Shown: one piece after another, positions 30,333-57,408 of the stretch
Numbering within the stretch: the stretch's first letter is position 1
How the letters are laid out: every line of letters starts with the position of its first letter
IMG/VR virus record: IMGVR_UViG_3300036832_000548
Location: 18,592-82,591 of that record
Length of the DNA stretch: 64,000 nucleotides
Strand: one strand, 5' to 3'
Origin: a virus
Position numbers and translations under genes: made by a program
Notes under the pieces: model-generated
The model's database searches: none
What the model saw: only the letters and a program-made list of their open reading frames with translations
Told to the model about the DNA's origin: nothing

Positions 30333-30736
30333 CTCAGCAAACGATCGGCATTGGTTCCGCGCCCAACGACGGCACCGGCGATCCGGTTAGAACTGCGTTC
30401 GACAAGTGCAATAAAAATTTCACTGAGCTCTATCAGACCCAGCGGCGCGTCACGTCCTCGCCCATCACGATTACATCGACTGATGCGATCATAAATTGCA
30501 ACATCAGCAGCGGCTCGCCTACTTGTACCTTGCCGCCATCCGCCTCGCGCGGAGGCCTGCCGCTCATCTTCAAGGATGTCGGGGGTCATTTCGCCGCTAA
30601 CAACCTGACCATCACTGCGGCAGCTAGCGAATTTATCGACGGGCTGACCACCATCGTACTCAGCACGAATTACCAGAGGCTGAAGCTGCTTCCAGTCAAT
30701 GACGGCGTTGGAGTGGGGTGGATCATTGACCAATGA
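30329..30736 (+). CDS. Fibre/baseplate-associated protein
   Basis: IGIGSAPNDGTGDPVRTAFDKCNKNFTELY N-terminal motif; C-terminal domain paralogous to the end of 23504-24904. Confidence 0.75.
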   Translation: MTQQTIGIGSAPNDGTGDPVRTAFDKCNKNFTELYQTQRRVTSSPITITSTDAIINCNISSGSPTCTLPPSASRGGLPLIFKDVGGHFAANNLTITAAASEFIDGLTTIVLSTNYQRLKLLPVNDGVGVGWIIDQ

Positions 30737-39752: not shown

Positions 39753-40460
39753 ATGAAGACTCTATTACTAGGTGCAGCCGCGCTTGCCGCGTTAGCGTTC
39801 GTGACGCCCGCAAGCGCGCAAAGCGAAAGCGTGACTATCGACCTGACTAACATCAACCTTCCCGGTACTACGTTCTCGGTCTCCGGTAGCGTGACTCAGA
39901 ATGGTACGGGCGGCCTCAATGTCAGTTTGGTCACTGACGGGTTCAACACGCCGGACCTATTCTTCCACGGTTCGACGGGTCATCCGACGTTGGGCTTCGA
40001 TCTGGGTGGCCTCGTTGCCGGTCTTGGTATCGTCAATGGCGATATCTCGATTGCCAACGCGACCTTCTTCGACCCGACCCACAACGTGACGACGACCGCC
40101 GTTCTCGGCATCGGCAGTCAGCAATACGATGGGTTCGGCAATTTCACGTTCAACCTCACTTGCGGTCTTGCCTGCCAAGCGTCGACCACGGACGTGACGA
40201 CGTTGAACTTCACCATCAAGGACAGCGACGGCAGCTTGCTGTTGGCGAACCTCGTCAACAACGGTAACGGCAATCTGTTCGGTCTGGACGTTTGGACTGA
40301 TCAGGGCGGCGCAGGTGGCAACACCGTCGCCACTGGCTTCGCAGCCGTGCAACTCGCTGCGGCGGTTCCAGAACCCGCGACATGGGGCATGATGCTGCTC
40401 GGCTTCATTGGCCTCGCGGCTGCGTTTCGCACACGTCGCCGGATAGCTGGCTTCGCCTAA
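39753..40460 (+). CDS. PEP-CTERM (PEPxxWA-type) exosortase-target protein 1
   Basis: Signal peptide ending ASA; VPEPATWGMMLLGF-TM-RTRRR. Confidence 0.9.
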   Translation: MKTLLLGAAALAALAFVTPASAQSESVTIDLTNINLPGTTFSVSGSVTQNGTGGLNVSLVTDGFNTPDLFFHGSTGHPTLGFDLGGLVAGLGIVNGDISIANATFFDPTHNVTTTAVLGIGSQQYDGFGNFTFNLTCGLACQASTTDVTTLNFTIKDSDGSLLLANLVNNGNGNLFGLDVWTDQGGAGGNTVATGFAAVQLAAAVPEPATWGMMLLGFIGLAAAFRTRRRIAGFA

Positions 40461-40530: not shown

Positions 40531-41181
40531 ATGATGAAGAAAATCTTACTTGCTAGCGTGTTTGCTTTGGCGGTCGGACCCGCCCTCGCAGACTCGATCC
40601 AACTGACGGCAACCGCCGATGGCGGCGTTCCTATTGTTATCAATAGCGCCGATGGTTCGCTCACTGTGACGAACCAAGCATTCGGTGTGTTCAACTTGAA
40701 CAGTCTGTCGATCAACAGTCAGACGTTCCTTGCGCCTCCGGGCGTGTTATCGTCCAACACGTTGGACGTTGATCAAGCCACGACCGGCACTCACACGCTG
40801 GCCCTCGACATCATTGCATCTGGTCTCTCTGGGCCGAATGCAGTTGAGAACTTTCTGTCGAGCTTCAGCGTGAGCGGCCAAACGGCAGGATGGTCAGTGA
40901 TCGAGCGAACAACGATCAACGGCAATCCGTTGGCGACCACTCCCTTGTTTACTGGCGTTAGCGACTCGGCGTTCAGCAACAATCTCGCGTTTGCTGGCAC
41001 GCTGTTCACCGCCGACGAGCACTATCTGATCACCAGCGTGGGCCAAGGCAGTTTCAACGGCGGCATCGACATCGCCGTTGGCGTTCCTGAGCCTGCGACT
41101 TGGGGTATGATGTTGCTAGGCTTCGTCGGCTTGGCTGCAGCGTTCCGCACACGTCGGCGGATGAGCCACGGCATCGCGTAG
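40531..41181 (+). CDS. PEP-CTERM (PEPxxWA-type) exosortase-target protein 2
   Basis: Signal peptide ending ALA; VPEPATWGMMLLGF-TM-RTRRR. Confidence 0.9.
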   Translation: MMKKILLASVFALAVGPALADSIQLTATADGGVPIVINSADGSLTVTNQAFGVFNLNSLSINSQTFLAPPGVLSSNTLDVDQATTGTHTLALDIIASGLSGPNAVENFLSSFSVSGQTAGWSVIERTTINGNPLATTPLFTGVSDSAFSNNLAFAGTLFTADEHYLITSVGQGSFNGGIDIAVGVPEPATWGMMLLGFVGLAAAFRTRRRMSHGIA

Positions 41182-43412: not shown

Positions 43413-43445
43413 CGACCCTCTCCCGGAGGGGAGGTGCGGCGGTGA

Positions 43446-43476
43446 ACCGGGTGCCCGAAAGGGTGCCCGGTTTTTT
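43446..43476 (+). terminator. Intrinsic terminator
   Basis: ACCGGGTGCCC-GAAA-GGGTGCCCGGT hairpin followed by a T run. Confidence 0.75.
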
Positions 43477-43494
43477 ATGGGGAGAGAGACGTAT

Positions 43495-43598
43495 CGTCTC
43501 GGCCAAGGCGCTCTTGATACCCATGTCCCGGATGCCGAGACGGGCCGCCATCGGCCACAAGGGGAATGATGCCCACCTGCTTGATGCCGGTGGCGGCC
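43495..43598 (+). ncRNA. Orphan TIGR-like guide doublet (2 dual-spacer stem-loop units)
   Basis: CGTCTCGGC-CA-N9-TGATACCCA-N9-T-GCCGAGACG then GGCCGCCATCGGC-CA-N9-TGATGCCCA-N9-T-GCCGGTGGCGGCC. Confidence 0.8.
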
Positions 43599-43942
43599 AC
43601 CTAAAAGAACGAGCCGACCTCCGGGGCGTTAAGAGGCCGGCTCGTCCTGCTTGGTAACCCGGCTGGTCGAGGGCTGGGCAACCGCGGGGATCATCGCACC
43701 GGCGCGGCTGTGTTGTCTAGGCCTATCCCTGCCGTTGCCGGCCCATCCACAAGAAACAAACGTAGACCCGACATTTGGCCCGACAGAAACTGGAAAGGTT
43801 GGTGTATTCAAGGTGTTGAAGCACCCTATAAGGGCGAAATAGACCATCAATCGCTGCCCATCGCTGCCAAAAGCATTGTGATTGCAATGGGACTTATTAT
43901 CTGGTCTGATGTCAGCAACCACCGACCCGACAAGGACCAGAC

Positions 43943-45136
43943 ATGGATAAGATCGATACCAAGGGCGCCCGCGAGAAGCTCCCCGCACGCGGGCGCGCAT
44001 ACTTCCTAAACACTGTCGCCAGTGGCATCACGCTGGGCTATCGCCGCCTGCCGGCTGGCCCTGGCTCCTGGCTCATTCGTAAGGCCGACGGCAAGGGCGG
44101 GGCCGTCCTCGTCACCTTCGCCAAGGCGGACGACCTGGTGCCAGCCGACGGCAAAACCATCCTCGACTTTGATCAAGCCCTCTTGCGAGCCCGCGAGGTT
44201 GCGGTCGACCTCATGAGCGACGTTGGCCCGCTGTCTATCGACAGGGCACTCACCGACTTTGCCAACGATCTGGCTGGCCGCGATTCGAACCCCGATAATG
44301 CCCGCCGCGTTCGCAAGCATTTGTCCTCGACTATGCTTGCCAAGCCCGTGGGCGCGCTCACCGCGCGCGAGCTTAAGCGATGGCGTGACGATCTCCTGAA
44401 GAAGATGACGCGGCCGACGGCCGTACGAACAATCAAGATGTTCCGCGCCGCGCTTAATCTCGCTGCCGATCTCGATAGCAAAATCACCAACCGCAATGAC
44501 TGGCGGATCGGCCTTAAGACGCGAGACGACTATCGGCCGGTTGATCGGGTACTTGAGGATGATCAGGTGCTACAGCTGATCGACGCGGCCTATGCGTTCG
44601 ACTATCAGTACGGCTTGCTGCTTGAGGTGTTGGCGTTCACCGGAACGCGCACCAAGCAGGCGACGCGCCTGATGGTCAGCGATCTTGATATCGCTGACAA
44701 GGACAAGCCGCGCCTGATGATGCCCGTGAGCCGCAAAGGCAAGTATCGCAAGACCGAGGTCAATCGGTCGATCCCGATTCCTGTCGATCTCGCTGGCAGG
44801 CTGCGTGCAGCTGCTGGCACTCGGCCGCGCAATACAGCGTTACTAGTCGACGGCAAGGGCAACCCGTGGAAACCGGCCGGCAACGAGATACGCAGGATGT
44901 GGAAGCGCGTCGCCGAGCAAGGCGGAATCAAAGAAACCATGTACGCCCTGCGGCACTCGTTCATCACGCGCAGTCTTAAGGCTGGCATTCCGCCAAGCGT
45001 GCTGGCGAACAGCGTCGACACATCGGTGGCAATGATCGAGAAAACCTATGGGCGCTTCGTCGCCAATCATGCGGACGACATCATGCGTCGTGCCCTGCTG
45101 CCATCAAGCAAGAGGATCCTTCGGATTGTGCCGTAG
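43943..45136 (+). CDS. int: Tyrosine recombinase/integrase
   Basis: Arm-binding N-terminus; TGTR, YALRHS, EKTYG catalytic motifs. Confidence 0.9.
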   Translation: MDKIDTKGAREKLPARGRAYFLNTVASGITLGYRRLPAGPGSWLIRKADGKGGAVLVTFAKADDLVPADGKTILDFDQALLRAREVAVDLMSDVGPLSIDRALTDFANDLAGRDSNPDNARRVRKHLSSTMLAKPVGALTARELKRWRDDLLKKMTRPTAVRTIKMFRAALNLAADLDSKITNRNDWRIGLKTRDDYRPVDRVLEDDQVLQLIDAAYAFDYQYGLLLEVLAFTGTRTKQATRLMVSDLDIADKDKPRLMMPVSRKGKYRKTEVNRSIPIPVDLAGRLRAAAGTRPRNTALLVDGKGNPWKPAGNEIRRMWKRVAEQGGIKETMYALRHSFITRSLKAGIPPSVLANSVDTSVAMIEKTYGRFVANHADDIMRRALLPSSKRILRIVP

Positions 45137-48427: not shown

Positions 48428-49045
48428 CTATTCGGATGCAGTATTTTTGTCCGTTTTGAGTGGGATCATCGGCGGATCGATATTCTCAAGCGCTTCAGCA
48501 ACAAGCCGGTCGCTCAGGTTCATCCGCGCCGTCAGATCCTTGATCGTATCGGTGACTTGCGTGCCGATCTTCGATGACATCTCGACCTCACGGAACGCCT
48601 CCGCGCCTTTCTGCCGAATGAGCCGCGCGGTATCGATGACTGTCTTGAGCACGGTTTGCGCTTGGTCGTGATACTCGCGGCCCATCTGCTCCAGTGTTTG
48701 CGCGCATTGTTCGTAGCCGATCACGACGGCATGCGCGGCGATGGCGGCACTGCGGGACACGTCAGGCGCGTGCGTAACGTAGTCAGGCAGCGGCCCCAGC
48801 ACCTTAGTGGCATTGTCCTGCCGCTGCTCAGGCGGCGCGTAATCGGCTGGGACCGGGACGTGTGGATCATCGAAGGTTGGACCTTTGATCCGCTCAGTCA
48901 CCATTCTTGGCGCGCGCTTTCCTGCCGCATTGACCTCAGCTTCAAGCGCCGCAGCAACGGCGGCAAACCCTTTCTCTTCCGGCGCTGCGTTCGGCAACAG
49001 TGCTTTCAAAGGGCTCTTCCCACGCACCACTGATGTGTCAGTCAT
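48428..49045 (-). CDS. Hypothetical protein
   Basis: AGGAG RBS; coiled-coil C-terminus. Confidence 0.65.
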   Translation of the reverse strand: MTDTSVVRGKSPLKALLPNAAPEEKGFAAVAAALEAEVNAAGKRAPRMVTERIKGPTFDDPHVPVPADYAPPEQRQDNATKVLGPLPDYVTHAPDVSRSAAIAAHAVVIGYEQCAQTLEQMGREYHDQAQTVLKTVIDTARLIRQKGAEAFREVEMSSKIGTQVTDTIKDLTARMNLSDRLVAEALENIDPPMIPLKTDKNTASE

Positions 49046-49222
49046 TTCGATCTCACTCCTTTGGTTGATCTTTGCAGGTTCCGAGGCGTATCAAGCGACC
49101 CTACCCACCACAGGTCGTCGCGCCGATTGGCTTCCGCCCACACAACGGCATCGTGTTCGCTCTGGAACGGCCCCAGATAGCTGAACCCGTCCTGCGGATT
49201 GCCGATGATAATGATGCAGATC

Positions 49223-50344
49223 TTAGGAACGCCCATCGGTTCCCTCAGGATGCGCTTGCTGCTCGTCCCAGCCTGCGCGCCACTCAAGGGCTTCGCGCGC
49301 CCGTGTTGGATCTCGATACTCGATCGGGGTTGCTTTGCGCTGCATGCCCTTGGCTTGGTCAGCGCGACCGCGTTCGCGCGCAATCACCAGCAAATCTGGG
49401 GCGGTCGCCTGTTGGGGTTCTACTTTCGTTTCGGATTTTGCAGCCGTTTGCTGCGGTTCCTGATTCGTTTCCGTGTTCGAATCATCGGAGTGCTGCTCGC
49501 TTGGCGGCGATTCCGGTTCTGTCAAGTGGTCGACGATGGTTCGGTCAGCGTGGGCTTGGTCGTGCGCTTCCTGCACGGTGTCTGCTGGTGGACCGGCGAA
49601 ATGATCGAGCGTCGCGCCGCGGGCGGTCTCACTGCGAGCGCGGGACTGGGCGGTCGTCTCGCCCTCTTCATCTTCGTACATCTCCTCATCTTTGCGGATC
49701 AGATCATCGAGGTCAGACGACATGGGCAGAAGCCGCGACAGGACCCGGATCGCGGTCTTCATCTCCATTTCTTCCGTCCACATTTTCCAAGGCGCGTCCT
49801 CGCGCGAGGCGCGGCTCATGTTGCGGCGCTTGGCAATCTCACTAGGCGATAGTGGCGCGATAAAAACCCCGCCGTCCTTGGTCCCGGCTGCGGCGTAGAC
49901 AAGACGCTTCTTCTTGTCGGTGTGATCGTCGCCCGGAATATGTTTGAAATGCGGGCCGTTCTCGTCAGTCCAGTGTTCCCAATGGTCGCCATCGTAAACG
50001 ATATCCGTCGTCACCCATTTAAATTGCCCGCTATTGCGGAATTTTTTGAGCAGGCCTTGGTACATCGGCAGGTATTGGACCTTGTTCTTAAATGGCACCA
50101 ACGCGGCCTCGCGACCGTCAGGCAGCAAACCGTCCTGGGCACAACGCAGTGCGGAGTTGAACAGCGAGCCGCGGTCACAGGTGAGCAGGTCGTTATTGAG
50201 CTGCACGGCGGTCAGCACAACGCGGAAGAACCGTTCGGCTGGCATGTGCTTCGGGAGCGCATGTTGAAATTGCACACTGCGATCGTTGAGTTGATCGCGC
50301 AGGACCACCATCGGGTGCGCGGGTTTGTTGGCTTGATCGTTCAT
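49223..50344 (-). CDS. recT: RecT-family single-strand annealing protein
   Basis: ALPKHM..ERF.RV..SL..CAQDGLLPDGREAALVPF..MYQGLLK..PW...EEM..KT.IR.L. Confidence 0.92.
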   Translation of the reverse strand: MNDQANKPAHPMVVLRDQLNDRSVQFQHALPKHMPAERFFRVVLTAVQLNNDLLTCDRGSLFNSALRCAQDGLLPDGREAALVPFKNKVQYLPMYQGLLKKFRNSGQFKWVTTDIVYDGDHWEHWTDENGPHFKHIPGDDHTDKKKRLVYAAAGTKDGGVFIAPLSPSEIAKRRNMSRASREDAPWKMWTEEMEMKTAIRVLSRLLPMSSDLDDLIRKDEEMYEDEEGETTAQSRARSETARGATLDHFAGPPADTVQEAHDQAHADRTIVDHLTEPESPPSEQHSDDSNTETNQEPQQTAAKSETKVEPQQATAPDLLVIARERGRADQAKGMQRKATPIEYRDPTRAREALEWRAGWDEQQAHPEGTDGRS

Positions 50345-50368
50345 TCGTTTTTCTCCTTTTGATTAGGT

Positions 50369-51038
50369 GCCGCCGAGGGCAGTCGAGCGTCGGGCATCAA
50401 GGCCTCGCAGGCCCTCGGCGGCGATCTCGGCACCGATTTCCTGGGCATCATAGGACGTTTGGCCGAGATTTCTTTTTGGTGCCGCCGAGGGCAACTTGAA
50501 CTTGGGCATCATGGGTGACATGGCCCTCGGCGGCTTGCTCGGCGTGCAGTTTTTGGGAACCCACTAATTTCTGGCCAAGCAATTTCTTGGAGTTGGTGCC
50601 GCCGCGGGCAACCCGAAGGGGGGGATCATTCGGGGCATGGCCCGCAGCGGCGGTCTCGGCAGGGGATGCATGGGCATCACGAAGTTCGTGGCCGAGATTT
50701 TTGCGCTTGCGTTTTTTGGGGCCGCCGACGGCGCTTGCGATTTGGGGATCAACCGAGCAATGGCCATCGGCAGCGACCTCGGCACCCATGCCATGGGCAT
50801 CAAGAACTACATGGCCGAGATCATTGGTGCCGCCGAGGGCAGAGGAATCCTGGGCATCATGCGCTGCTTGGCCATCGGCGGCGATCTCGGCAAAGCGTCG
50901 CTGGGCATCATGGATCCGTTGGCCGAGACCATTCGAATAGATGCCGCCGGCATGGCTCCTCTGGGCATCAGCCGCATGCTGGCCGACGGCGATCTCGGCA
51001 GCGCCATTTTGGGCATCATTGCTCATGTGGCCGAGATC
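50369..51038 (-). ncRNA. TIGR-like stem-loop array A (6 doublets, 12 dual-spacer units)
   Basis: Repeated GATCTCGGC-CA-N9-TGATGCCCA-N9-T-GCCGAGATC / GCCGCCGAGGGC-CA-N9-TGATGCCCA-N9-T-GCCCTCGGCGGC with unique spacers. Confidence 0.88.
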
Positions 51039-51974
51039 ATTCGTGGCTTGATCGACCCACTGTTCCCACAGGTCCACCAAGAATTGTTTGAAGGCGATCC
51101 GCAATCCGTCCTGGCGGCGATGACCGGGCGTCCATTCGGGATGCGATATCTCAGTGCGTATTCGGCGCGCGGCATAGACCTCGCCATAGCGTCCGTTGGG
51201 ATGACCTTCATCGGCCCCGGCCTTCGCTGCCGATATCCACTGCTTGTTCACGAGCCACAAGGCGATCGTGTACATCGTGGCGTATCGCTCACCCGAAAAC
51301 GGATTCGCGATCCATTCCTCCTTATCCAACTTACGCGGCCGCCACGTTTCCCGTTTCCAAGTCGATCCGGCGTGGCCATCATACGGTGCAAAGCCGAGAC
51401 GCTTCCAAAGCTTCTCCGGGTTCGCGTAGTTATCGAGCGGGCCCGCCTCCGCAACGATCAGGGCAAGGCCGAGGATGCCCGCGCCGGGGATCGACTCAAC
51501 CCACGGTGCAACGGGCAACTGCGCCGCGAGTTCCTCTATTCCAGCCGTTGAGTCGTCTCGCACTTCATCCATTGGCCCACGCGCGATGTCAGTCTTCTGC
51601 ACAATCGTGAGCAGATCGTGGGGCAAGTCCGTTTGAACAATCTCGCCGCTGCCGTTGGCGGCCTTCTTGTACACCGCGCGCGCCTCCTTGATCATCGCGG
51701 CAACCTTCTTGTTGTATTCCGCGCGAATGGCTTCCGACTCAGTCGGCTTCCAATCTGTAAAGTTGCGCCGGATATAGGACTCAAGAGCGCGGTCGATCTT
51801 TTGTTGAACTTTGATCGCGAACTTGCGCCGTCGCGCCAGCGTCACGATGTTCTTCACCAGCTCGTCGCGAGCACGAATTTGCAGCACCAGCGAAGGCAAG
51901 CCAATGGCGGAATTGCGCGCATCAATCAAAGCTTGAGCGCGGCGAGTGCGGTCGGCATTTGTTTGCTGTGTCAT
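50448..51974 (-). CDS. tasA: IS110/Nop-domain RNA-binding protein without nuclease domain (TasA-like); C-terminal about 195 aa read through array A
   Basis: Coiled coil, then LPVAPWVESIPGAGILGLALIVAEAG..YANPEKLWKRLGFAP..YGEVY..GHRRQDGLRIAFKQFLVDLW; no N-terminal DEDD/RuvC; AAGGGA RBS. Confidence 0.8.
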   Translation of the reverse strand: MTQQTNADRTRRAQALIDARNSAIGLPSLVLQIRARDELVKNIVTLARRRKFAIKVQQKIDRALESYIRRNFTDWKPTESEAIRAEYNKKVAAMIKEARAVYKKAANGSGEIVQTDLPHDLLTIVQKTDIARGPMDEVRDDSTAGIEELAAQLPVAPWVESIPGAGILGLALIVAEAGPLDNYANPEKLWKRLGFAPYDGHAGSTWKRETWRPRKLDKEEWIANPFSGERYATMYTIALWLVNKQWISAAKAGADEGHPNGRYGEVYAARRIRTEISHPEWTPGHRRQDGLRIAFKQFLVDLWEQWVDQATNDLGHMSNDAQNGAAEIAVGQHAADAQRSHAGGIYSNGLGQRIHDAQRRFAEIAADGQAAHDAQDSSALGGTNDLGHVVLDAHGMGAEVAADGHCSVDPQIASAVGGPKKRKRKNLGHELRDAHASPAETAAAGHAPNDPPLRVARGGTNSKKLLGQKLVGSQKLHAEQAAEGHVTHDAQVQVALGGTKKKSRPNVL

Positions 51975-51998
51975 ATTGTGTGTCCCTTGTTGTTAGGT

Positions 51999-52100
51999 GC
52001 CGCCGAGGACATTCGACGTATGGGTATCACCCGAGCAACGGCCCTCGGCGGCGATCTCGGCGATCATACAATGGGCATCACTGGGGCTGTAGCCGAGATC
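51999..52100 (-). ncRNA. TIGR-like array B (1 doublet)
   Basis: Same repeat architecture, intergenic upstream of tas. Confidence 0.85.
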
Positions 52101-52102
52101 AT

Positions 52103-52795
52103 TTAGTGTCCTTCGATATACTTTTGCAGGCTCGCCACCGTCGCAACGACTGCGGTGTTCAACGCAGCCGGGGCTTGCTCGCGAGCTTCCCGATCAAACT
52201 GCTCGAGCACATTTGCTGGGACGATATCGCGGACCCGCGCATCCGTATTTGGCACGCGCGCGTAGCTGCGGATCTTGCACATGAGCAGCGTGTCGGCAGT
52301 CTCCTGCAGTGTGCTCAACACGGTCGAACCGACGACCGCAATGCGCTCCTCAATCGCGGCGTCCAGCTCCCGCCAGTGCAGGTCGCCAACCGGCGCGCCG
52401 TTGATCCTGCGGCGGTCATAGATGAGGCCAACGCTGCGCATCATCGCGGTTCGGTTGATCGCCTTGTCGCGGGCTGTGGGTGATTTGGTGCCGCCGCTGG
52501 CGTTTCTGCTTTGGGCATCAAGTCCACGCTGGCCAGCGGCAGCGGTCTTGGCACGCAGCGTGTGGGCATCAGCATGTACGCGGCCAAGATCATTCGAAAT
52601 GCGTTTGAGATAATCCAGCGCGAGCCCGCCGAGTAATTCCGGGCGGCGTTGAATTTTCTTGACGAAGCCGGTCAAGACTTTCGTCGGGTCGTTTTTGTTG
52701 TCATTCAACAAATTGACGGCAGCGACCCGCAGCTCGTTAGCGACGGTGTCGAGGCCGGCTTTCTTCAGAGCAGCTCCGATAGATGTGTCAGTCAT
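52103..52795 (-). CDS. Hypothetical helical protein containing an in-frame guide doublet
   Basis: GGAG RBS before ATG 52795; open across array C. Confidence 0.7.
   Translation of the reverse strand: MTDTSIGAALKKAGLDTVANELRVAAVNLLNDNKNDPTKVLTGFVKKIQRRPELLGGLALDYLKRISNDLGRVHADAHTLRAKTAAAGQRGLDAQSRNASGGTKSPTARDKAINRTAMMRSVGLIYDRRRINGAPVGDLHWRELDAAIEERIAVVGSTVLSTLQETADTLLMCKIRSYARVPNTDARVRDIVPANVLEQFDREAREQAPAALNTAVVATVASLQKYIEGH
52490..52591 (-). ncRNA. TIGR-like array C (1 intragenic doublet)
   Basis: Same architecture with compensatory stem changes. Confidence 0.8.
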
Positions 52796-52818
52796 TTTGT
52801 GTTCTCCGTTCAAAAGGT

Positions 52819-53033
52819 GCCGCTGAGGGCACCAGTCCCGTAGGCATCAACAAACAGATGGCCCGCAGCGGCGATCTCGGCAAAACTTGGTTGGGCATCA
52901 TGGATGCGATAGCCGAGATCATTTGTGTGGGTGCCGCCGAGGGCATTGCGTCGTTGGGCATCAGGCGTTCCTGGGCCCCCGGCGGCGGTCTCGGCACCGA
53001 TCCTCTGGGCATCAACGCGCGGATGGCCGAGAT
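52819..53033 (-). ncRNA. TIGR-like array D (2 doublets)
   Basis: Same repeat architecture. Confidence 0.87.
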
Positions 53034-53038
53034 TTGTG

Positions 53039-53734
53039 TCATATCGTTACCCTGAAGATTTCGCTGAATGGCGGGCGGTGCGCCGCGTCAGATAGCTCGT
53101 TGCTGACGACTAGCACGCGATATCGAAAGCCGCGGCTTTGATTGATTACGCTGGTTCGCGCGAGATAGTTTTTCTGGAGCTGTTGCAGCCAAAAACTGGC
53201 GTGTTGCAGTTCCCCGTAAATCTTCTGCCGTCGGGCTGCATGATTGATCCGACGAAGAACGGACCCCTCATTGAACACAACGATGAAATCGCTGGCTGCA
53301 ACGTCGCGCGCCACGATCCGCATCGCGCCAACGCCATGCCCGGTGTAGCCGCAGGGATCTGATAGCCATAGGACGTAATCGTACCCACCGGCGCGTACGA
53401 CATCGACGACATCGGAATGCGTCTCGGCAATGAGGGCACTCGGAAACCGTTTGCGCAGCAAAAGCCGTTGCCTCCGACTCGCATCGCACAGGCAAACGTC
53501 CGCGCTCACGGCGAAGGCGATGTTGGTGACAATCTGCGGCGTTGGCGTCGACACAACGCCGTCATGCAAAACGCCGATACCATCACCAGCATTGGCATCG
53601 ATCAAAAGAAGTTTGTCGTGCAGATGAGCGGTCCTGACTTGCGCTTCAACGATCTTGCTCAACAACGAGTGTTTGATCCACGACCCCTCGCTGCGGCCCG
53701 CATTAGCGCGTTCGTTGGTCGAGGCGTGGGTCAT
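53039..53734 (-). CDS. SAM-dependent methyltransferase-fold protein (TcmP/GMT-like)
   Basis: SWIKHSLL..LIDANAGDG..LSDPCG, similar to the KH/IDxxAGxG/DPxG motifs of TcmP-like proteins. Confidence 0.55.
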   Translation of the reverse strand: MTHASTNERANAGRSEGSWIKHSLLSKIVEAQVRTAHLHDKLLLIDANAGDGIGVLHDGVVSTPTPQIVTNIAFAVSADVCLCDASRRQRLLLRKRFPSALIAETHSDVVDVVRAGGYDYVLWLSDPCGYTGHGVGAMRIVARDVAASDFIVVFNEGSVLRRINHAARRQKIYGELQHASFWLQQLQKNYLARTSVINQSRGFRYRVLVVSNELSDAAHRPPFSEIFRVTI

Positions 53735-53743
53735 CGTGTAGGT

Positions 53744-54406
53744 GCCGCCGCAGGCAGAGGCCGAGTGGGCATCATCGTCGTTGTGGCCCGCGGCGGCGAT
53801 CTCGGCGTTCCGCGTTTGGGCATCAAGCGATCGTTGGCCGAGAATTGTTGAAAGGCTGCCGCCGAGGGCATGACGATTTTGGGCATCAACGAACGACTGG
53901 CCATCGGCGGCGATCTCGGCAAGCGCCTTCTGGGCATCATCTGGCCTGTGGCCGAGATCATTCGAATGGGGGCCGCCGAGGGCAAGCACAGGATGGGCAT
54001 CACGGGTCGCGTGGCCCCCGACGGCGATCTCGGCACCCGAGTCATGGGCATCAAGTGGTCATGGGCCGAGATTATAGGTGCCGCCGAGGGCAACGATCCA
54101 TTGGGCATCACGCTGGCAACGGCCCTCGGCGGCGATCTCGGCATTCCATCATTGGACAGCAAGTCGTCGTTGGCCGAGAAGATTTTAGGTGCCGCCGAGG
54201 GCGCACCTCCCATGGGCATCAAGGACGGCGTGGCCCGCGGCGGCGATCTCGGCAACGGGTGGCTGGGCATCAGCCGTCTACTGGCCGAGATCATTCTGAT
54301 AGATGCCGCCGAGGGCATGAGCTGCTTGGGCATCAGCCAGCTTCTGGTCCTCGACGGCGATCTCGGCAGAGCTCGTATGGGCATCACTGGTGGATTGGCC
54401 GAGATC
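53744..54406 (-). ncRNA. TIGR-like array E (6 doublets, 12 units)
   Basis: Same repeat architecture; starts at the stop codon of the YqaJ gene. Confidence 0.9.
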
Positions 54407-55325
54407 ATTTGGTTGCTTCTTTACGTTCGTGAATTCGGAGAACGCGGACCTCGCGTGGGAGGACCGTATAGCCGGAAAAATTCGAGGTTTTGTAGGTGAC
54501 TTTCCATCCGTTAACGCCGGAGACTTGGGCCGCGTCACCCAATTTGTATTTTATCTGAGCCTCGATCTCGTCTTTGCGTTGGTCGAGCGAAGCGATCCGT
54601 TGCATCAGGGCGGCGCGTTCCGCGAGGATTTCCGGCAGCTCGTTGTCGCCAGACATGTCGACCATCTTATCGGTGGCTTCGCGTGGACTGATCAACTTGA
54701 TCAGCTCAGCATCCTTGCCGAAATCGGGCGCCGGCTCGTGACCGATCCGCATTAGCTCCCAAAAATTCTGGGCGGCTGTCTTGATCCGCTCCTCGGCACC
54801 GGCGTGGCGTGGCAATTCCCTGATGCAGACATCGAGATCATAGTTGTAAACCACGGCGGCCACCCCGAAGGCGGCGTCGGCCAGCAGCATCTCGGTGAGC
54901 AGCTGCAGCTCGATCCACAATGGGGTGATATTTCCGTTGTCCCAATCGCGCTCAAAGATGTGCGGATAGGCGGTTTTAGTTTGCAGGATGCCGAGGCCGC
55001 GCGGATCGCCGTGGATAAAGAAATCTGGCGTAGCGCCCAACTGCAGCTCAGGGGCACGGAAATATGTCTGGCATTTCTCAATGATCCAATCGTCGTGTTC
55101 CTCTCCGACACGCTGGGCAACGACGTTTTCGAGCAGGCGCCCGCGGCGGATCGGTTTCGTTTCCTCGAATTCGAACTCCATCCCATTGTGCTGATAGTAA
55201 AGCTTGAGCGCGGTGACATACGGGTGCAGGCCGAACAGCGCCGCCACCACGGAGGCGGTGATGTCCGGCTTGCGCAGCTCCAGCCACTGCGGGCGACTCA
55301 GGATTGGGATGCGTTCGACGATCAT
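54405..55325 (-). CDS. YqaJ/lambda-exonuclease family protein
   Basis: WLELRKPDITAS..RGRLLE..GATPDF..LQTKT..QL. Confidence 0.9.
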   Translation of the reverse strand: MIVERIPILSRPQWLELRKPDITASVVAALFGLHPYVTALKLYYQHNGMEFEFEETKPIRRGRLLENVVAQRVGEEHDDWIIEKCQTYFRAPELQLGATPDFFIHGDPRGLGILQTKTAYPHIFERDWDNGNITPLWIELQLLTEMLLADAAFGVAAVVYNYDLDVCIRELPRHAGAEERIKTAAQNFWELMRIGHEPAPDFGKDAELIKLISPREATDKMVDMSGDNELPEILAERAALMQRIASLDQRKDEIEAQIKYKLGDAAQVSGVNGWKVTYKTSNFSGYTVLPREVRVLRIHERKEATK

Positions 55326-55372
55326 GGGTGTTCCGAATCGAATAGGGCAATCTTGCCTCTGAGCCGCGCGGC

Positions 55373-55389
55373 GTCAACAAGGAGTTGAC
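55373..55389. promoter_or_regulatory. Palindromic operator-like site in the divergent early control region
   Basis: GTCAAC-AAGGA-GTTGAC; contains TTGAC -35-like hexamers on both strands; another TTGACA at about 55432. Confidence 0.5.
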
Positions 55390-55493
55390 TCTTTCCCCGC
55401 TGTCCTTTCTCCGGGGGTGGCAACCCTAGTTTGACAACGTTAGGGCTACTCGGTTAATTTTTTCTTGCTTGGTAACCCTTGGTCGATATTCAC

Positions 55494-55763
55494 ATGGCAA
55501 AAGAGAGACTTGACGCAGCCATTCTGGCGCTGCGGGAAGAGAATTGGCTACCTAGAATCGCGCAGCGACTCAATTTGACCCGGCAGGCGACCTCGAAATG
55601 GCGCCGCGTTCCGGCAGATCGTGTGCGCGAGGTCGCCAAGATCACGGATTATCCCCTGGCATTTTTACGTCCTGATCTTTACGAGGACATGCCATCCAAG
55701 CCGCCCAAGCTGGCGAAGCCGAAAGCTCGCCGCCGCAATCATCGTGCTGTTGCGCATGCTTGA
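55494..55763 (+). CDS. Cro/YdaS-like HTH regulator
   Basis: IAQRLNLTRQATSKWRRVPADRV..LRPDLY. Confidence 0.85.
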   Translation: MAKERLDAAILALREENWLPRIAQRLNLTRQATSKWRRVPADRVREVAKITDYPLAFLRPDLYEDMPSKPPKLAKPKARRRNHRAVAHA

Positions 55764-56359
55764 GGGGTATTATGGGCCAGCCATTCGACGGTCTTCCGCG
55801 CGCCCATTTCCGCGCAATCCTGGCTGACCCGCCGTGGAACTTTGAGACCTATAGCGAGGCTGGTCGCGATCGTTCTCCCAATTATCCGCTGATGACGGCG
55901 CAGGGCTTGCGCGATCTGCCGGTCAAAGACCTCGCGGCGCCTGATTGCGTGCTGTTCATGTGGGTTACATGGCCAATGCTCGAGCAATCGCTGGCGCTGA
56001 TTCGCGCGTGGGGGTTCACCTACAAGACGTGCGGGTTTGACTGGATGAAGGCGCACGCGGGCCAGATCGATATGTTCCGCGACGACGCGGATGGCCAGGT
56101 TGGGCTTGGCTACTGGACGCGCAGCAACAGCGAGCCGTGCCTGTTGGCAACGCGCGGCAAGCCCAGACGGGTCAACGCTGATGTCCGCATGGGCATCATC
56201 GAGCCGCGGCGCGAGCACAGCCGCAAGCCTTATTGCATCTATGACCGCATCGAGCGGCTCGTCCAAGGACCATATATTGAATTATTTGCTCGCTGGCAGC
56301 GTCCGGGCTGGACCGCTTGGGGCAATGAGACTGACCGATTCAAGGAGGCTGCGGAGTGA
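55760..56359 (+). CDS. MT-A70 family adenine methyltransferase
   Basis: ILADPPW; LFMWVT; AWGFTYKT; GLGYWTRSNSEPCL; REHSRKP; IELFAR. Confidence 0.92.
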   Translation: MRGIMGQPFDGLPRAHFRAILADPPWNFETYSEAGRDRSPNYPLMTAQGLRDLPVKDLAAPDCVLFMWVTWPMLEQSLALIRAWGFTYKTCGFDWMKAHAGQIDMFRDDADGQVGLGYWTRSNSEPCLLATRGKPRRVNADVRMGIIEPRREHSRKPYCIYDRIERLVQGPYIELFARWQRPGWTAWGNETDRFKEAAE

Positions 56360-56995
56360 ATGTCCTCGATTTATTCAGCGGGATCGGCGGCTTCTCACTC
56401 GGACTCGAACGGGCCGGAATGCGAACTACCGCTTTTTGCGAGTCTGATGCGTTCTGCCGGCGCGTCCTCGCCAAGCACTGGCCCGACATCCTCTGCTACG
56501 ACGATGTCACAACTCTCACTGCCGCTCGACTTAGCGCCGATGGCATTGACAGCATTGATCTCATCTGCGGCGGATTTCCCTGCCAAGACATCTCCGTTGC
56601 CGGCAAAGGCGCAGGACTTGCTGGCGAGCGATCGGGCCTATGGCTCGAGTTCGCGCGAATTGTTGGCGAGCTACGACCCCGTTACGTCATCGTGGAGAAC
56701 GTCGCAGCTCTGCTTGGACGGGGACTATCAACAATTCTCGGAGACCTGGCCGCGCTCGGGTTTGATGCGGAATGTGGGTCGAGTGGTTGATGGGCCTGCC
56801 GCTCGAGTGGACCGTCGTAAGCGGCTCATCGCGCTTGGAAACGGACTCGTCCCGCAAATCCCGGAAATCATTGGACGCGCCATAATGGATGCTGAGCGCC
56901 CATACGACTTGCACGATGACATCAACAAGTCGCTGAAGGTTTGTTACGACGAGATCAAGGCGCGGCAGGCTGCGGGCGGTCCCGGCTGGCCATGA
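56356..56995 (+). pseudogene. C5-cytosine methyltransferase split over two frames with an apparent internal deletion
   Basis: Motifs I (DLFSGIGG), IV (GFPCQD) and VI (ENV) in 56356-56790; motif X (LGNGLVPQI) in the +1 frame; motif VIII and TRD absent. Confidence 0.7.
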
Positions 56996-57408
56996 GCGCG
57001 CTGCAACAAAAAGATCTTTTCACTAAACGCTGGCGGCATGTTCGCGAGCTGGACCCGTATGAAGATCAGATACAGGAAGCCCTGGTTGCGCAATTGCAAT
57101 GGGGCAAGCTGCGCGCCGGCGTGGTGTTCTTTCATGTTCCCAATGGCGGCAAGCGCGATAAGCGCACTGCTGCCAAGCTGAAACGTATGGGAGTGTTGCC
57201 GGGTGTCGCTGATCTAATATTTCTGTGGGCAACCGGCATGATCCCGCGCGTGTTATTTCTTGAGCTGAAGGCCAAGGGCGAAGGTTTATCGAAGGAACAG
57301 AGACTGTTCCGCGACAATGTGAAGACGGTGCGGTGCTACTTTGAGTGCGCTGACAACATCGATGACGCGCTGACGATTCTGGATAGATACAAGTTGCTGC
57401 GTGGTTGA
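56992..57408 (+). CDS. VRR-NUC domain nuclease
   Basis: EDQIQ..FHVPNGG..GVLPGVADL..LELK..LSKEQ. Confidence 0.88.
   Translation: MSALQQKDLFTKRWRHVRELDPYEDQIQEALVAQLQWGKLRAGVVFFHVPNGGKRDKRTAAKLKRMGVLPGVADLIFLWATGMIPRVLFLELKAKGEGLSKEQRLFRDNVKTVRCYFECADNIDDALTILDRYKLLRG

What the first reader, a model, noticed from the sequence alone, without database searches (positions are those of the whole stretch)
50369..53033. Compensatory changes show the repeats are selected as RNA stems in a strict short-stem/long-stem alternation
Units always come as a 9-bp stem (GATCTCGGC/GCCGAGATC) followed by a 12-bp stem (GCCGCCGAGGGC/GCCCTCGGCGGC). Variants keep pairing. At 52490-52591 the plus strand reads GCCGCCGCTGGC/GCCAGCGGCAGC and GGTCTTGGC/GCCAAGATC. 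At about 50943-50990 three bases are lost from both arms. At about 50598-50651 GCGGGC pairs with GCCCGC. Spacer length stays at 9 throughout. The doublet appears to be the unit of duplication or processing.
Basis: seen in the sequence. Interest (0 to 1): 0.7.

Follow-up and report, generated by a model that had tools for sequence, protein, structure and literature searches.

The report
Phage guide-RNA hairpin arrays (TIGR-TasA)
The paired hairpin repeats are the guide-RNA genes of a recently described RNA-guided DNA-binding system (TIGR-Tas) carried by a soil phage; the kind is known, but here the guides come in fixed pairs and lie inside open reading frames.

Summary
The window has 33 well-formed hairpin units and 1 degenerate unit. 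Twenty lie in 50369-53033, 12 in 53744-54409 and 2 at 43492-43597. Short-stem and long-stem units alternate strictly, and spacers are always 9 nt.

The stems are selected. They covary within the window and strongly across 26 related phage loci. G-U exceeds A-C 55:24 on the gene-sense strand.

Read on the sense (minus) strand, each unit is: stem, CCA, N9, UG-AWRC-CCA, N9, UG, stem. That is the published stem-loop TIGR unit: two 9-nt spacers framed by box C (CCA) and box D (UG), with a 9-nt loop repeat (PMC12045711; bioRxiv 10.64898/2026.09.09.750476).

The gene at 51046-51974 is a nuclease-less Tas/IS110-Nop homologue. So this is a new member of a known kind. This scan has noted the kind on other DNA in at least 121 genomes.

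Local extras:
- Tight two-unit doublets whose neighbours almost never share a stem (271 of 276).
- Arrays at every gene junction between the exonuclease and RecT genes.
- One doublet in frame inside an unrelated gene.
- Arrays kept open in a sense reading frame (30 of 34 against 16 expected).

Expression, processing and targets are untested or not found.

The parts
53744..54409 (-). TIGR stem-loop array, 12 units (6 short/long doublets), between the YqaJ-like exonuclease gene and gene 53039-53734
   Evidence: Units listed. Spacings are 51/63/51/60/51/57/51/63/51/63/51. The whole array lies in ORF 53731-54408, which overlaps both neighbouring genes by ATGA.
52819..53037 (-). TIGR array, 4 units (2 doublets)
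   Evidence: The minimum-free-energy fold of the sense RNA reproduces all four unit stems. ORF 52788-53042 spans the array; it starts with an ATGA overlap on the stop of the upstream gene.
52490..52594 (-). Single doublet lying in frame in the inter-domain linker of an unrelated gene (52103-52795)
   Evidence: In the 77%-identical relative P0122 the doublet keeps its place and length, while the spacer-coded residues differ. Six of the 10 aligned homologues lack the doublet.
51999..52103 (-). Single doublet just upstream of tasA
51046..51974 (-). tasA-like gene core (309 aa), with no nuclease domain found. The ORF runs on to 50448 through 10 units (9 well-formed, 1 degenerate).
   Evidence: NCBIfam NF052498 TIGR_Tas_endo, E 1.8e-12, 47.7 bits (cut-off 100), and the IS110 model at 7.2e-8. 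Pfam Transposase_20 matches 21 of 26 family members. The PDB profile search hits TasR 9MTY at 9.5e-4 and TasH at 3.2e-3. It is the only match in the 82.6-kb record.
50369..51041 (-). TIGR array, 11 well-formed units plus one degenerate unit (50535-50582), between the tasA core and recT
   Evidence: Nine of the well-formed units and the degenerate unit are read in frame by the 508-aa ORF 50448-51974.
43492..43597 (+). Isolated doublet after the last gene of the + strand (late) operon. It is sense on the + strand and has covaried stems (CGTCTCGGC/GCCGAGACG and GCCGCCATCGGC/GCCGGTGGCGGC).
54405..55325 (-). YqaJ-like exonuclease gene, first gene of the array-bearing operon
   Evidence: Pfam PF09588, E 3.5e-10.
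49223..50344 (-). recT gene, just downstream of the last array
   Evidence: Pfam PF03837, E 2e-31.

Best explanation
The repeats are a stem-loop TIGR (tandem interspaced guide RNA) system of a temperate-type soil phage. The host is probably a member of the Xanthobacteraceae.

How it most likely works. The minus-strand early operon (exonuclease to recT) is transcribed as one RNA. Each hairpin in it is one guide unit. A G+C-rich stem closes a 30-nt loop that reads CCA (box C), 9-nt spacer A, UG (box D) AWRC CCA (box C), 9-nt spacer B, UG (box D). The nuclease-less Tas protein encoded at 51046-51974 (TasA class) binds the box C/D motifs as a dimer. The unit is cut out of the transcript. The two spacers then pair with opposite strands of a DNA target, so the complex sits on DNA and blocks transcription without cutting.

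Shown here:
- The anatomy of the units.
- Selection on the stems.
- The sense-strand bias in wobble pairs.
- Sequence homology of the protein to Tas and IS110.
- The same design beside homologues of this protein in 25 of 26 related loci.

Taken from the literature, not from this locus: binding by Tas, processing, split-spacer targeting and repression by TasA.

My inferences:
(a) The two alternating stem types exist so that a 3' arm never lies next to a complementary 5' arm. With one stem type, that neighbouring pairing would compete with the long-loop hairpin.
(b) The arrays are kept free of stop codons in one sense frame, so ribosomes read through them and the operon has no long untranslated gaps.
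For: Anatomy. Over 336 distinct units, the box positions are C 0.98, C 0.95, A 0.87, then N9, then T 0.97, G 1.00, A 0.94, W, R, C, C 0.99, C 0.97, A 0.93, then N9, then T 0.95, G 0.98. Both spacers are 9 nt and the loop repeat is 9 nt.

Match to print. Faure et al. state that edge and loop repeats 'start with UG and end with CCA'. [quoted passage not shown] Xu et al. report a loop of mostly 9 nt, arrays inside coding sequence without breaking the frame, and TasA acting as a repressor (sections 5, 7 and 12).

Protein. See, as listed under parts. No RuvC, DEDD or HNH family was found.

Stems.

Sense RNA. G-U to A-C is 55:24, p 6e-4, with a detection rule that treats both strands alike. Of the 392 hits, relatives contribute 7 hits on the strand opposite tasA, and in the window 32 of 35 hits lie on the tasA strand. 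The sense fold gives the four expected stems, z -3.25.

Association. Of 25 loci fetched through the protein alone, 24 carry at least 4 units on the tasA strand; L033 has 1.

Alternation. 271 of 276 adjacent units differ in stem class.

Open frames.
Against: - No RNA data exist for this DNA, so transcription, processing and ends are unknown.
- The match to the NCBIfam Tas model is below its curated cut-off. That model also gives sub-cut-off matches in 5 of 14 control genomes, so sequence alone does not separate Tas from IS110 C-terminal domains.
- No target was found. The window's 33 units have no convincing split match in the phage's own 82.6 kb. The 281 units of all loci have no exact match in 870 kb, and one-mismatch hits are as common in control arrangements as in real ones.
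- The CUU processing motif reported for other stem-loop arrays is present in only 2 of 10 window linkers and 7 of 11 L015 linkers (my count).
- Some stems carry uncompensated mismatches.
Confidence: 0.85

Rival explanations
1. The repeats are primarily protein-coding: a repetitive peptide (frame 'NDLG..DAQ..AEIAAEGH..DAQ..ALGGT' or frame 'MISA..LMP..LPRSPPRA') whose DNA happens to be palindromic.
For: ORFs run through the arrays in frame with flanking genes. Doublet periods are multiples of 3 in 122 of 155 cases. Sense-frame stop codons are depleted.
Against: The reading frame is not constant. Tails of TasA homologues are read in the DAQ frame in some proteins and in the LKP frame in others.

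Of 336 units, 46 carry a stop in the first frame and 29 in the second.

Conservation is at the base level. The loop codon third position is C in 99% of units, whereas GCC is only 219 of 896 Ala codons in this phage's genes. GAC is 4% at the Asp/Glu position, whereas GAT:GAC is 233:232 in genes.

The arm peptides change between phages (DLG/AEI, AAEG/ALGG, GGG/APA) while base complementarity is kept.
Confidence: 0.03
2. They are REP/BIME-like operon punctuation: hairpins that stabilise or process the polycistronic mRNA, with no guide function.
For: They are intergenic, transcribed-strand, G+C-rich hairpins at every gene junction of one operon.
Against: A stabilising hairpin needs neither a fixed 30-nt loop, nor invariant CCA/UG anchors around two exactly 9-nt hypervariable stretches, nor a 9-nt conserved centre. 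Co-occurrence with a Tas homologue in 24 of 25 loci found through the protein is left unexplained. The features of REP/BIME are recalled here, not taken from a call.
Confidence: 0.05
3. They act as DNA: cruciform or single-strand hairpin sites for the neighbouring Exo/RecT recombination proteins or another DNA-binding protein, or linker sequences for module exchange.
For: The arrays lie inside a recombination module. CAN9TG is its own reverse complement.
Against: The orientation follows the direction of transcription on both strands: 43.5 kb on +, the rest on -. The excess of G-U over A-C is specific to the sense strand.
Confidence: 0.03
4. They are selfish palindromic insertion elements that spread in frame, like the Rickettsia palindromic elements (recalled, not from a call), and have no function for the phage.
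For: One doublet sits in frame in the linker of a two-domain protein whose other homologues lack it. Arrays are tolerated inside ORFs.
Against: Copies of a recently spreading element would share their interior. Here the interior spacers are all different, while the stems and boxes are kept. This is the pattern of long purifying selection on a scaffold.
Confidence: 0.04

Closest known systems
Stem-loop TIGR arrays with nuclease-less TasA (PlTasA from a Peromyscus leucopus gut contig, Bifidobacterium longum BlTasA, Minisyncoccota MbTasA; Faure et al. 2025, PMC12045711; Xu et al. 2026, bioRxiv 10.64898/2026.09.09.750476; Guan et al. 2026, bioRxiv 10.64898/2026.08.11.744272)
   Same: Palindromic stems framing two 9-nt spacers. 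Box C (CCA) and box D (UG) anchors. A 9-nt loop. Sub-arrays upstream, downstream and inside coding sequence without breaking the frame. A solo Nop/IS110-type protein. A phage setting.
   Different: - Here the stems are conserved and of exactly two alternating kinds, joined with no linker into doublets. Xu et al. section 7 describes stems that mostly diverge within an array.
- The arrays occupy five successive gene junctions of an exo-recT operon, plus one site in the late operon.
- One doublet lies inside a non-tas gene.
- The CUU motif is not conserved.

I could not see the figures, Extended Data or supplements, which may already show this clade.
Dual-repeat TIGR arrays (TaTasR, SpTasH, FpTasA; Faure et al. 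2025)
   Same: Two 9-nt spacers. A loop repeat starting with UG and ending with CCA. A Tas dimer as partner.
   Different: No stems in those arrays: short edge repeats and 36-nt tigRNAs. Many of them have a RuvC or HNH nuclease domain.
IS110/IS621 bridge RNA
   Same: A homologous C-terminal (Nop-like) protein domain. The Fig. 7E legend of Faure et al. [quoted passage not shown]
   Different: No DEDD/RuvC domain was found. There are many doublets instead of one RNA per element. There are no transposon ends.
Archaeal/eukaryotic box C/D s(no)RNAs
   Same: Two guide stretches anchored by C and D boxes and bound by a Nop-domain protein (relation as stated by Faure et al.).
   Different: No k-turn or L7Ae partner is shown. 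Published Tas systems target DNA, not RNA.
Rickettsia palindromic elements and REP/BIME (recalled, not from a call)
   Same: Palindromic repeats tolerated in frame inside genes or between the genes of an operon.
   Different: Those have no fixed box-spacer-box interior and no dedicated Nop-type protein.

Membership tests
Stem-loop TIGR-Tas (TasA class) | Two spacers of 8-12 nt, each preceded by box C (CCA) and followed by box D (UG) | tested here: met
   Both spacers are 9 nt in 33 of 33 window units. Box positions are 0.87-1.00 conserved over 336 units. The definition was read.
Stem-loop TIGR-Tas (TasA class) | Loop between the spacers of conserved length (mostly 9 nt), starting with UG and ending with CCA | tested here: met
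   UGAWRCCCA, 9 nt. Xu et al. section 7.
Stem-loop TIGR-Tas (TasA class) | Palindromic arms flanking each spacer pair, supported by covariation | tested here: met
   Of 326 box-only hits, 317 have at least 6 of 8 Watson-Crick pairs, while the slid control never exceeds 5.
Stem-loop TIGR-Tas (TasA class) | Adjacent gene for a protein with a Nop (IS110 C-terminal type) RNA-binding domain | tested here: met
   By sequence only. NF052498 at E 1.8e-12, but 47.7 bits against a cut-off of 100. Transposase_20 matches 21 of 26 members. The top two PDB profile hits are TasR 9MTY and TasH.
Stem-loop TIGR-Tas (TasA class) | No nuclease domain (TasA, as against TasR or TasH) | tested here: met
   No RuvC, DEDD or HNH family appears in Pfam or NCBIfam for the 309-aa core or the 508-aa ORF. 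Absence of a hit is weak evidence.
Stem-loop TIGR-Tas (TasA class) | Array transcribed and processed into unit RNAs bound by Tas | not testable with these tools
   No RNA holder is listed for this DNA.
Stem-loop TIGR-Tas (TasA class) | Conserved CUU at the base of the stem as the processing site (Xu et al. section 11) | tested here: inconclusive
   CTT occurs in 2 of 10 window linkers and 7 of 11 L015 linkers (my count). The linkers share ACC..Y-rich..GAAT instead.
Stem-loop TIGR-Tas (TasA class) | Spacers A and B match opposite strands of adjacent DNA in a target | tested here: inconclusive
   No match above the control arrangements in the phage's own genome or in 870 kb of related loci. Host genomes were not searched.
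IS110-family bridge-RNA transposon | N-terminal DEDD/RuvC catalytic domain fused to the C-terminal domain | tested here: not met
   Only the C-terminal part of the IS110 model aligns (model 113-278 of 343). There is no DEDD family in Pfam.
CRISPR array | One repeat of 25-36 nt alternating with single spacers of similar size | tested here: not met
   The spacers are 9 nt and come in pairs. Three conserved elements alternate.

The most novel reading that the evidence does not exclude
The mature, functional RNA may be the doublet rather than the single unit. Two stem-loops would stay joined because no linker lies between them, giving four independent 9-nt guides and binding two TasA dimers. That would be a natural, nuclease-free counterpart of the two-loop IS110 bridge RNA, able to bring two DNA sites together. 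Here it sits between the phage's exonuclease and RecT genes. It would also be a living intermediate between TIGR guides and bridge RNAs.

A second part of this reading is that the arrays are really translated, so that guide genes double as open reading frames that keep the operon's translation continuous.

Not excluded by the evidence:
- 262 of 339 units sit in an exclusive tight pair, spacing 47-54 nt.
- Published stem-loop arrays are 'processed at linker regions' (Fig. 7C legend of Faure et al., read), and there is no linker inside a doublet.
- The four spacers of a doublet are unrelated to each other.
Probability: 0.2. Interest if true: 0.65.

Novelty: new member of a known kind. Interest (0 to 1): 0.35.

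Why it matters
It turns an unexplained 4-kb repeat field into an annotated system: 33 guide RNAs and their TasA protein in a phage early operon.

It also gives a natural clade for three open questions about TIGR systems. The clade comprises at least 26 soil-phage loci and one Xanthobacteraceae genome bin.
- How are stem-loop guides cut out when two units abut?
- Why do guide arrays sit inside reading frames?
- What do phage TasA guides target?

The rule that neighbouring units have different stems (271 of 276) is a simple design constraint. It could help array finders and people who build synthetic multi-guide arrays.

Tried and rejected
- Rfam. Nothing relevant in 49500-55500: two chance hits at E 0.3-0.5.
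- Exact pattern scans of IMG/VR. The window's own stems were found in no other record. The two-centre pattern gave 12 loci, of which only L012 was a real relative by my reading.
- Close-relative scans with the TasA core found nothing in viral contigs or metagenome contigs. The contig of the nearest relative (P0002/P0122, 58,751 bases) could therefore not be fetched.
- Before the TIGR lead I considered several readings: antitermination RNA of the HK022 put type, RNase III sites, integron attC, centromere repeats and RiPP precursors. All were recalled ideas. None explains the fixed box-spacer-box loop.
- Loop pairing. Spacer A and spacer B are neither complementary nor alike, within units or across the doublet (151 doublets, all |z| at most 2.25).
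- Self-targets and targets in related phages: none above the controls.
- Recent duplication of units: none seen.
- Sequencing runs: no RNA holder listed. Two soil-metagenome DNA runs hold the stretch, one of which may be the source and the other only a small share that I did not lay.
- Promoter and terminator scan of 49000-55600: no sigma-70-like site and no minus-strand terminator-like site. This is weak support at best for one transcription unit. The hairpin plus T-run that I read at 43447-43478 was not listed by the scan.
- Supplements, figures and Extended Data of the TIGR papers were not available to me. They may already list this clade, the doublets or arrays in non-tas genes. The words 'doublet' (0 occurrences) and 'alternat' (other senses only) were searched in two preprints, not in the Science paper.
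Full report
OBSERVATION. On the + strand each doublet is GCCGCCGAGGGC-A-N9-TGGGCATCA-N9-TG-GCCCTCGGCGGC, followed at once by GATCTCGGC-A-N9-TGGGCATCA-N9-TG-GCCGAGATC.

I count 31 well-formed units on the minus strand. They lie at 50369-51041 (11 units), 51999-52103 (2), 52490-52594 (2), 52819-53037 (4) and 53744-54409 (12). There is one degenerate unit at 50535-50582, and one further doublet at 43492-43597 in the opposite orientation. Twenty of the 34 lie inside the stated coordinates.

A pattern made only of the centre and three stem bases on each side has 30 matches, against 0.43 expected. The rest of the 82.6-kb virus record has none. The 33 good units align without a gap, so both variable stretches are always 9 nt.

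From short-stem unit to long-stem unit the distance is 51 nt in 15 of 16 minus-strand doublets and 48 in one. From a long-stem unit to the next short-stem unit it is 57-72 nt. Nine of 10 such spacings are multiples of three.

ARE THE STEMS SELECTED? Within the window, 86.9% of cells pair, against 67.8% in shuffles. The covariation score is 0.479 against 0.180, with 0 of 500 shuffles as high, and slid controls give 31-55% paired. Much of that signal is the difference between the two stem classes, so I also listed departures from each class consensus:
- 15 cells changed on both sides and still pairing.
- 13 one-sided changes to G-U.
- 9 changes to A-C, 8 of them in the two outermost pairs of the short stem.
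- 7 other mismatches.

The stronger evidence comes from relatives. A profile of homologues of the gene at 51046-51974 brought in 24 IMG/VR loci and one Xanthobacteraceae genome-bin contig. A pattern scan brought in L012. All but L033 carry the same design with other stem sequences. Examples are GCGGTCGC/GCGACCGC with GAGCCCGGC/GCCGGGCTC, GCGCGCCCGGC/GCCGGGCGCGC, GGCGGGGGC/GCCCCCGCC, and many unique stems in L021, L028, L031, L034, L036 and L037.

When units are found from the loop motifs alone, with no demand on the arms, 317 of 326 have at least 6 of 8 Watson-Crick pairs and 217 have 8 of 8. With the 3' arm slid by two bases, none exceeds 5.

I aligned 150 units: all 33 from the window plus 117 sampled evenly from 224 distinct units of relatives. 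On these, 7 of 8 pairs change on both sides. The covariation score is 0.879 against 0.186, 0 of 500 shuffles as high. Those units had been picked with a pairing rule, so the 97.9% paired figure is inflated. The covariation and one search are not affected.

WHICH STRAND? All genes from 55325 down to 45995 are on the minus strand. The 43.5-kb doublet follows the last + strand gene and is sense on +.

With a detection rule that treats both strands alike, the non-Watson-Crick pairs in 282 distinct units are 55 G-U, 24 A-C and 29 other when read on the gene-sense strand (p 6e-4). The sense RNA of 52810-53045 folds into exactly the four expected stems (z -3.25). The antisense RNA folds partly otherwise.

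WHAT IT IS. On the sense strand the unit reads: 5' arm ending ..GC, then C-A, N9, U-G-A-W-R-C-C-C-A, N9, U, then G-C.. of the 3' arm. Over 336 distinct units the anchor bases are 87-100% conserved, while the two N9 stretches are close to random.

My own reading up to one search was a REP-like or antitermination hairpin of unknown function. A note from this scan on the same stretch (e1-6123025) proposed a TIGR-Tas-like system, and I tested that.

Faure et al. (PMC12045711; passages read) define TIGR units as two spacers, usually 9 nt, separated by a loop repeat. Both the edge and loop elements 'start with UG and end with CCA' (box D and box C). They also describe a stem-loop form in which palindromic sequences replace the edge repeats. 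Xu et al. (bioRxiv 10.64898/2026.09.09.750476; sections 5, 7, 11, 12 read) report the following:
- 2,559 stem-loop arrays.
- A loop that is mostly 9 nt.
- Arrays upstream of, downstream of or inside the tas coding sequence 'without disrupting the reading frame'.
- Processing at a CUU motif.
- RNA-guided transcriptional repression by TasA.

Every sequence feature of that definition is met here (see Membership tests).

The protein fits too:
- NCBIfam TIGR_Tas_endo matches at E 1.8e-12 over residues 129-306, though below the curated cut-off.
- The IS110 model matches at 7.2e-8 over its C-terminal part only.
- Pfam Transposase_20 matches 21 of 26 family members.
- The two best PDB profile hits are 9MTY, which is the TasR structure, and TasH.
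- No nuclease family was found.
- It is the only such gene in the record.

The same call shows that this NCBIfam model also gives sub-cut-off matches in 5 of 14 control genomes. So the protein evidence is homology to the Tas/IS110 Nop-type domain, not proof of the Tas clade. The fold could not be tested.

THE ALTERNATION. In the window the class string is a strict ABAB once the degenerate unit is counted. Over 26 locus strands, 271 of 276 neighbours no more than 80 nt apart have different stem classes. This holds where only two classes exist (13 or more loci) and where many exist.

The first unit of a pair abuts the second with about 0-1 nt between the arms (spacing 48-52). The second is followed by a linker of about 10-16 nt (spacing 57-65) with a loose ACC..pyrimidine-rich..GAAT pattern.

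Of 339 units, 262 sit in an exclusive tight pair, 17 have tight neighbours on both sides and 60 have none. Sixty-five arrays are even in number, 12 are odd, and 31 units stand alone. Some of those singles may be false hits or have degenerate partners.

My explanation is inferred. In a tandem array of identical palindromic stems, each 3' arm would lie next to a complementary 5' arm and would pair with it across a short linker, instead of closing its own 30-nt loop. Two alternating stems, or all-different stems, remove that competitor.

In L013 the two classes also differ in their loop repeat. TGATG occurs in 5 of 6 long-stem units and 0 of 7 short-stem units.

READING FRAMES. ORFs run through the arrays.
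- The tasA ORF continues for 199 codons through 10 units.
- The doublet at 52490-52594 is in frame inside ORF 52103-52795.
- Arrays 53744-54409 and 52819-53037 are each spanned by an ORF in the other sense frame. Each such ORF starts on an ATGA overlap with the preceding gene. The first also ends on an ATGA overlap with the next gene; the second ends 8 nt into the next gene.
- In L015, a 441-codon ORF with the same ATGA start spans 24 units.
- Homologues of TasA carry such tails at the N or C terminus, in one frame in some proteins and in the other frame in others.

The third sense frame has the loop's UGA in every unit.

The loops are not uniformly coding. Forty-six of 336 units have a stop in the first frame and 29 in the second. 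Conservation is at the base level, not the codon level.

There is, however, a sense-specific constraint:
- The doublet period is a multiple of three in 122 of 155 cases.
- Thirty of 34 arrays of at least 4 units have a sense frame open from end to end. After shuffling bases within each spacer the figure is 16.0 +/- 2.7, with 0 of 300 shuffles as high.
- On the antisense strand the figures are 24 against 20.2 +/- 2.2, with 20 of 300 as high.
- Stop triplets inside spacers are depleted in the second frame (28 against 49.7, z -3.4). They are depleted much less in the other two frames (z -1.2 and -1.3).

I infer that the arrays are kept translatable. This is known for arrays inside tas and appears to extend here to arrays between and inside other genes. 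It is perhaps needed so that the operon has no long untranslated stretch. No translation data exist.

THE DOUBLET IN A NON-TAS GENE. The C-terminal 127 residues of ORF 52103-52795 have 43 relatives. Most are 200-290 aa long, with the match in their C-terminal half. In an alignment of the window's protein with 10 of them, by my reading:
- Three have a doublet-like segment in the inter-domain linker (P0122, P0128 and probably P0129).
- One has a single unit (P0124).
- Six have none.

In the 77%-identical relative P0122 the segment keeps its place and length, but the spacer-coded residues differ while the flanks are well conserved.

SPACERS AND TARGETS. The 66 window spacers are all different. 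The four spacers of a doublet show no identity or complementarity to each other. No target was found in the phage or in related loci. The papers also state that natural targets are unknown (discussion passages).

LIMITS.
- There are no RNA data.
- There is no structure prediction.
- The nearest relative's contig could not be fetched.
- Figures and supplements of the papers were not seen.
- The units of related phages are not independent samples, so the p-values are rough.

VERDICT. The hairpins are real, selected and RNA-level, and the alternation is real. They are the guide units of a stem-loop TIGR-TasA system, a kind published in 2025-2026 and noted by this scan on other DNA in at least 121 genomes. 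I file this as a new member of a known kind.

Three local features are not stated in the texts I could read: fixed two-stem doublets without an inner linker, arrays at every junction of an exo-recT operon and inside a non-tas gene, and a sense-frame constraint on whole arrays.

Noticed in passing
window 52103-52795 (-): A two-domain protein family of unknown function (43 relatives). The window's member, and a few others, carry a TIGR doublet in frame in the inter-domain linker. Six of the 10 aligned homologues lack it.
   Followed up: yes
window 53731-54408 (-) and 52788-53042 (-); L015 5989-7314 (+): Whole arrays are spanned by ORFs in the proline-rich frame (MISA..LMP..). Each ORF starts on an ATGA overlap with the stop of the upstream gene and ends overlapping the next gene's start, like translationally coupled genes.
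   Followed up: partly
window 43440-43660 (+): The isolated doublet is preceded by a G+C-rich hairpin plus a T-run (43447-43478 by my reading; the consensus scan did not list it). It is followed by another inverted repeat. It lies between the last late gene and a 397-aa ORF (43943-45136) that I did not identify.
   Followed up: partly
window 50535-50582: A degenerate unit. The arms still pair with one mismatch and box C is kept, but the loop repeat has lost its UG (GGGTTCCCA on the sense strand).
   Followed up: yes
L013 2400-5800 (+): The two unit classes differ not only in stem but also in loop repeat. TGATG occurs in 5 of 6 long-stem units, and TGAAG, TGAAA or TGGAG in all 7 short-stem units. 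This hints at two guide classes.
   Followed up: partly
proteins P0053, P0088, P0098, P0060 (homologues of the TasA-like protein): Their C-terminal tails are repeats read in the other sense frame (..LKP..VP..RPA..). So gene callers extend tasA through arrays in either frame.
   Followed up: partly
window 30880-33166 (+): An ORF of 928 codons (30733-33519) holds many copies of a 63-nt (21-codon) periodic repeat (families D5-D9 and D12).
   Followed up: no
window 40354-40444 and 41072-41162 (+): A 91-nt stretch occurs in two neighbouring ORFs at 78% identity (family D14).
   Followed up: no
window 55760-57408 (+): ORFs downstream of the divergent early region look, by eye, like an MT-A70-type and a C5 DNA methyltransferase and a VRR-NUC nuclease. 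I ran no family search on them.
   Followed up: no
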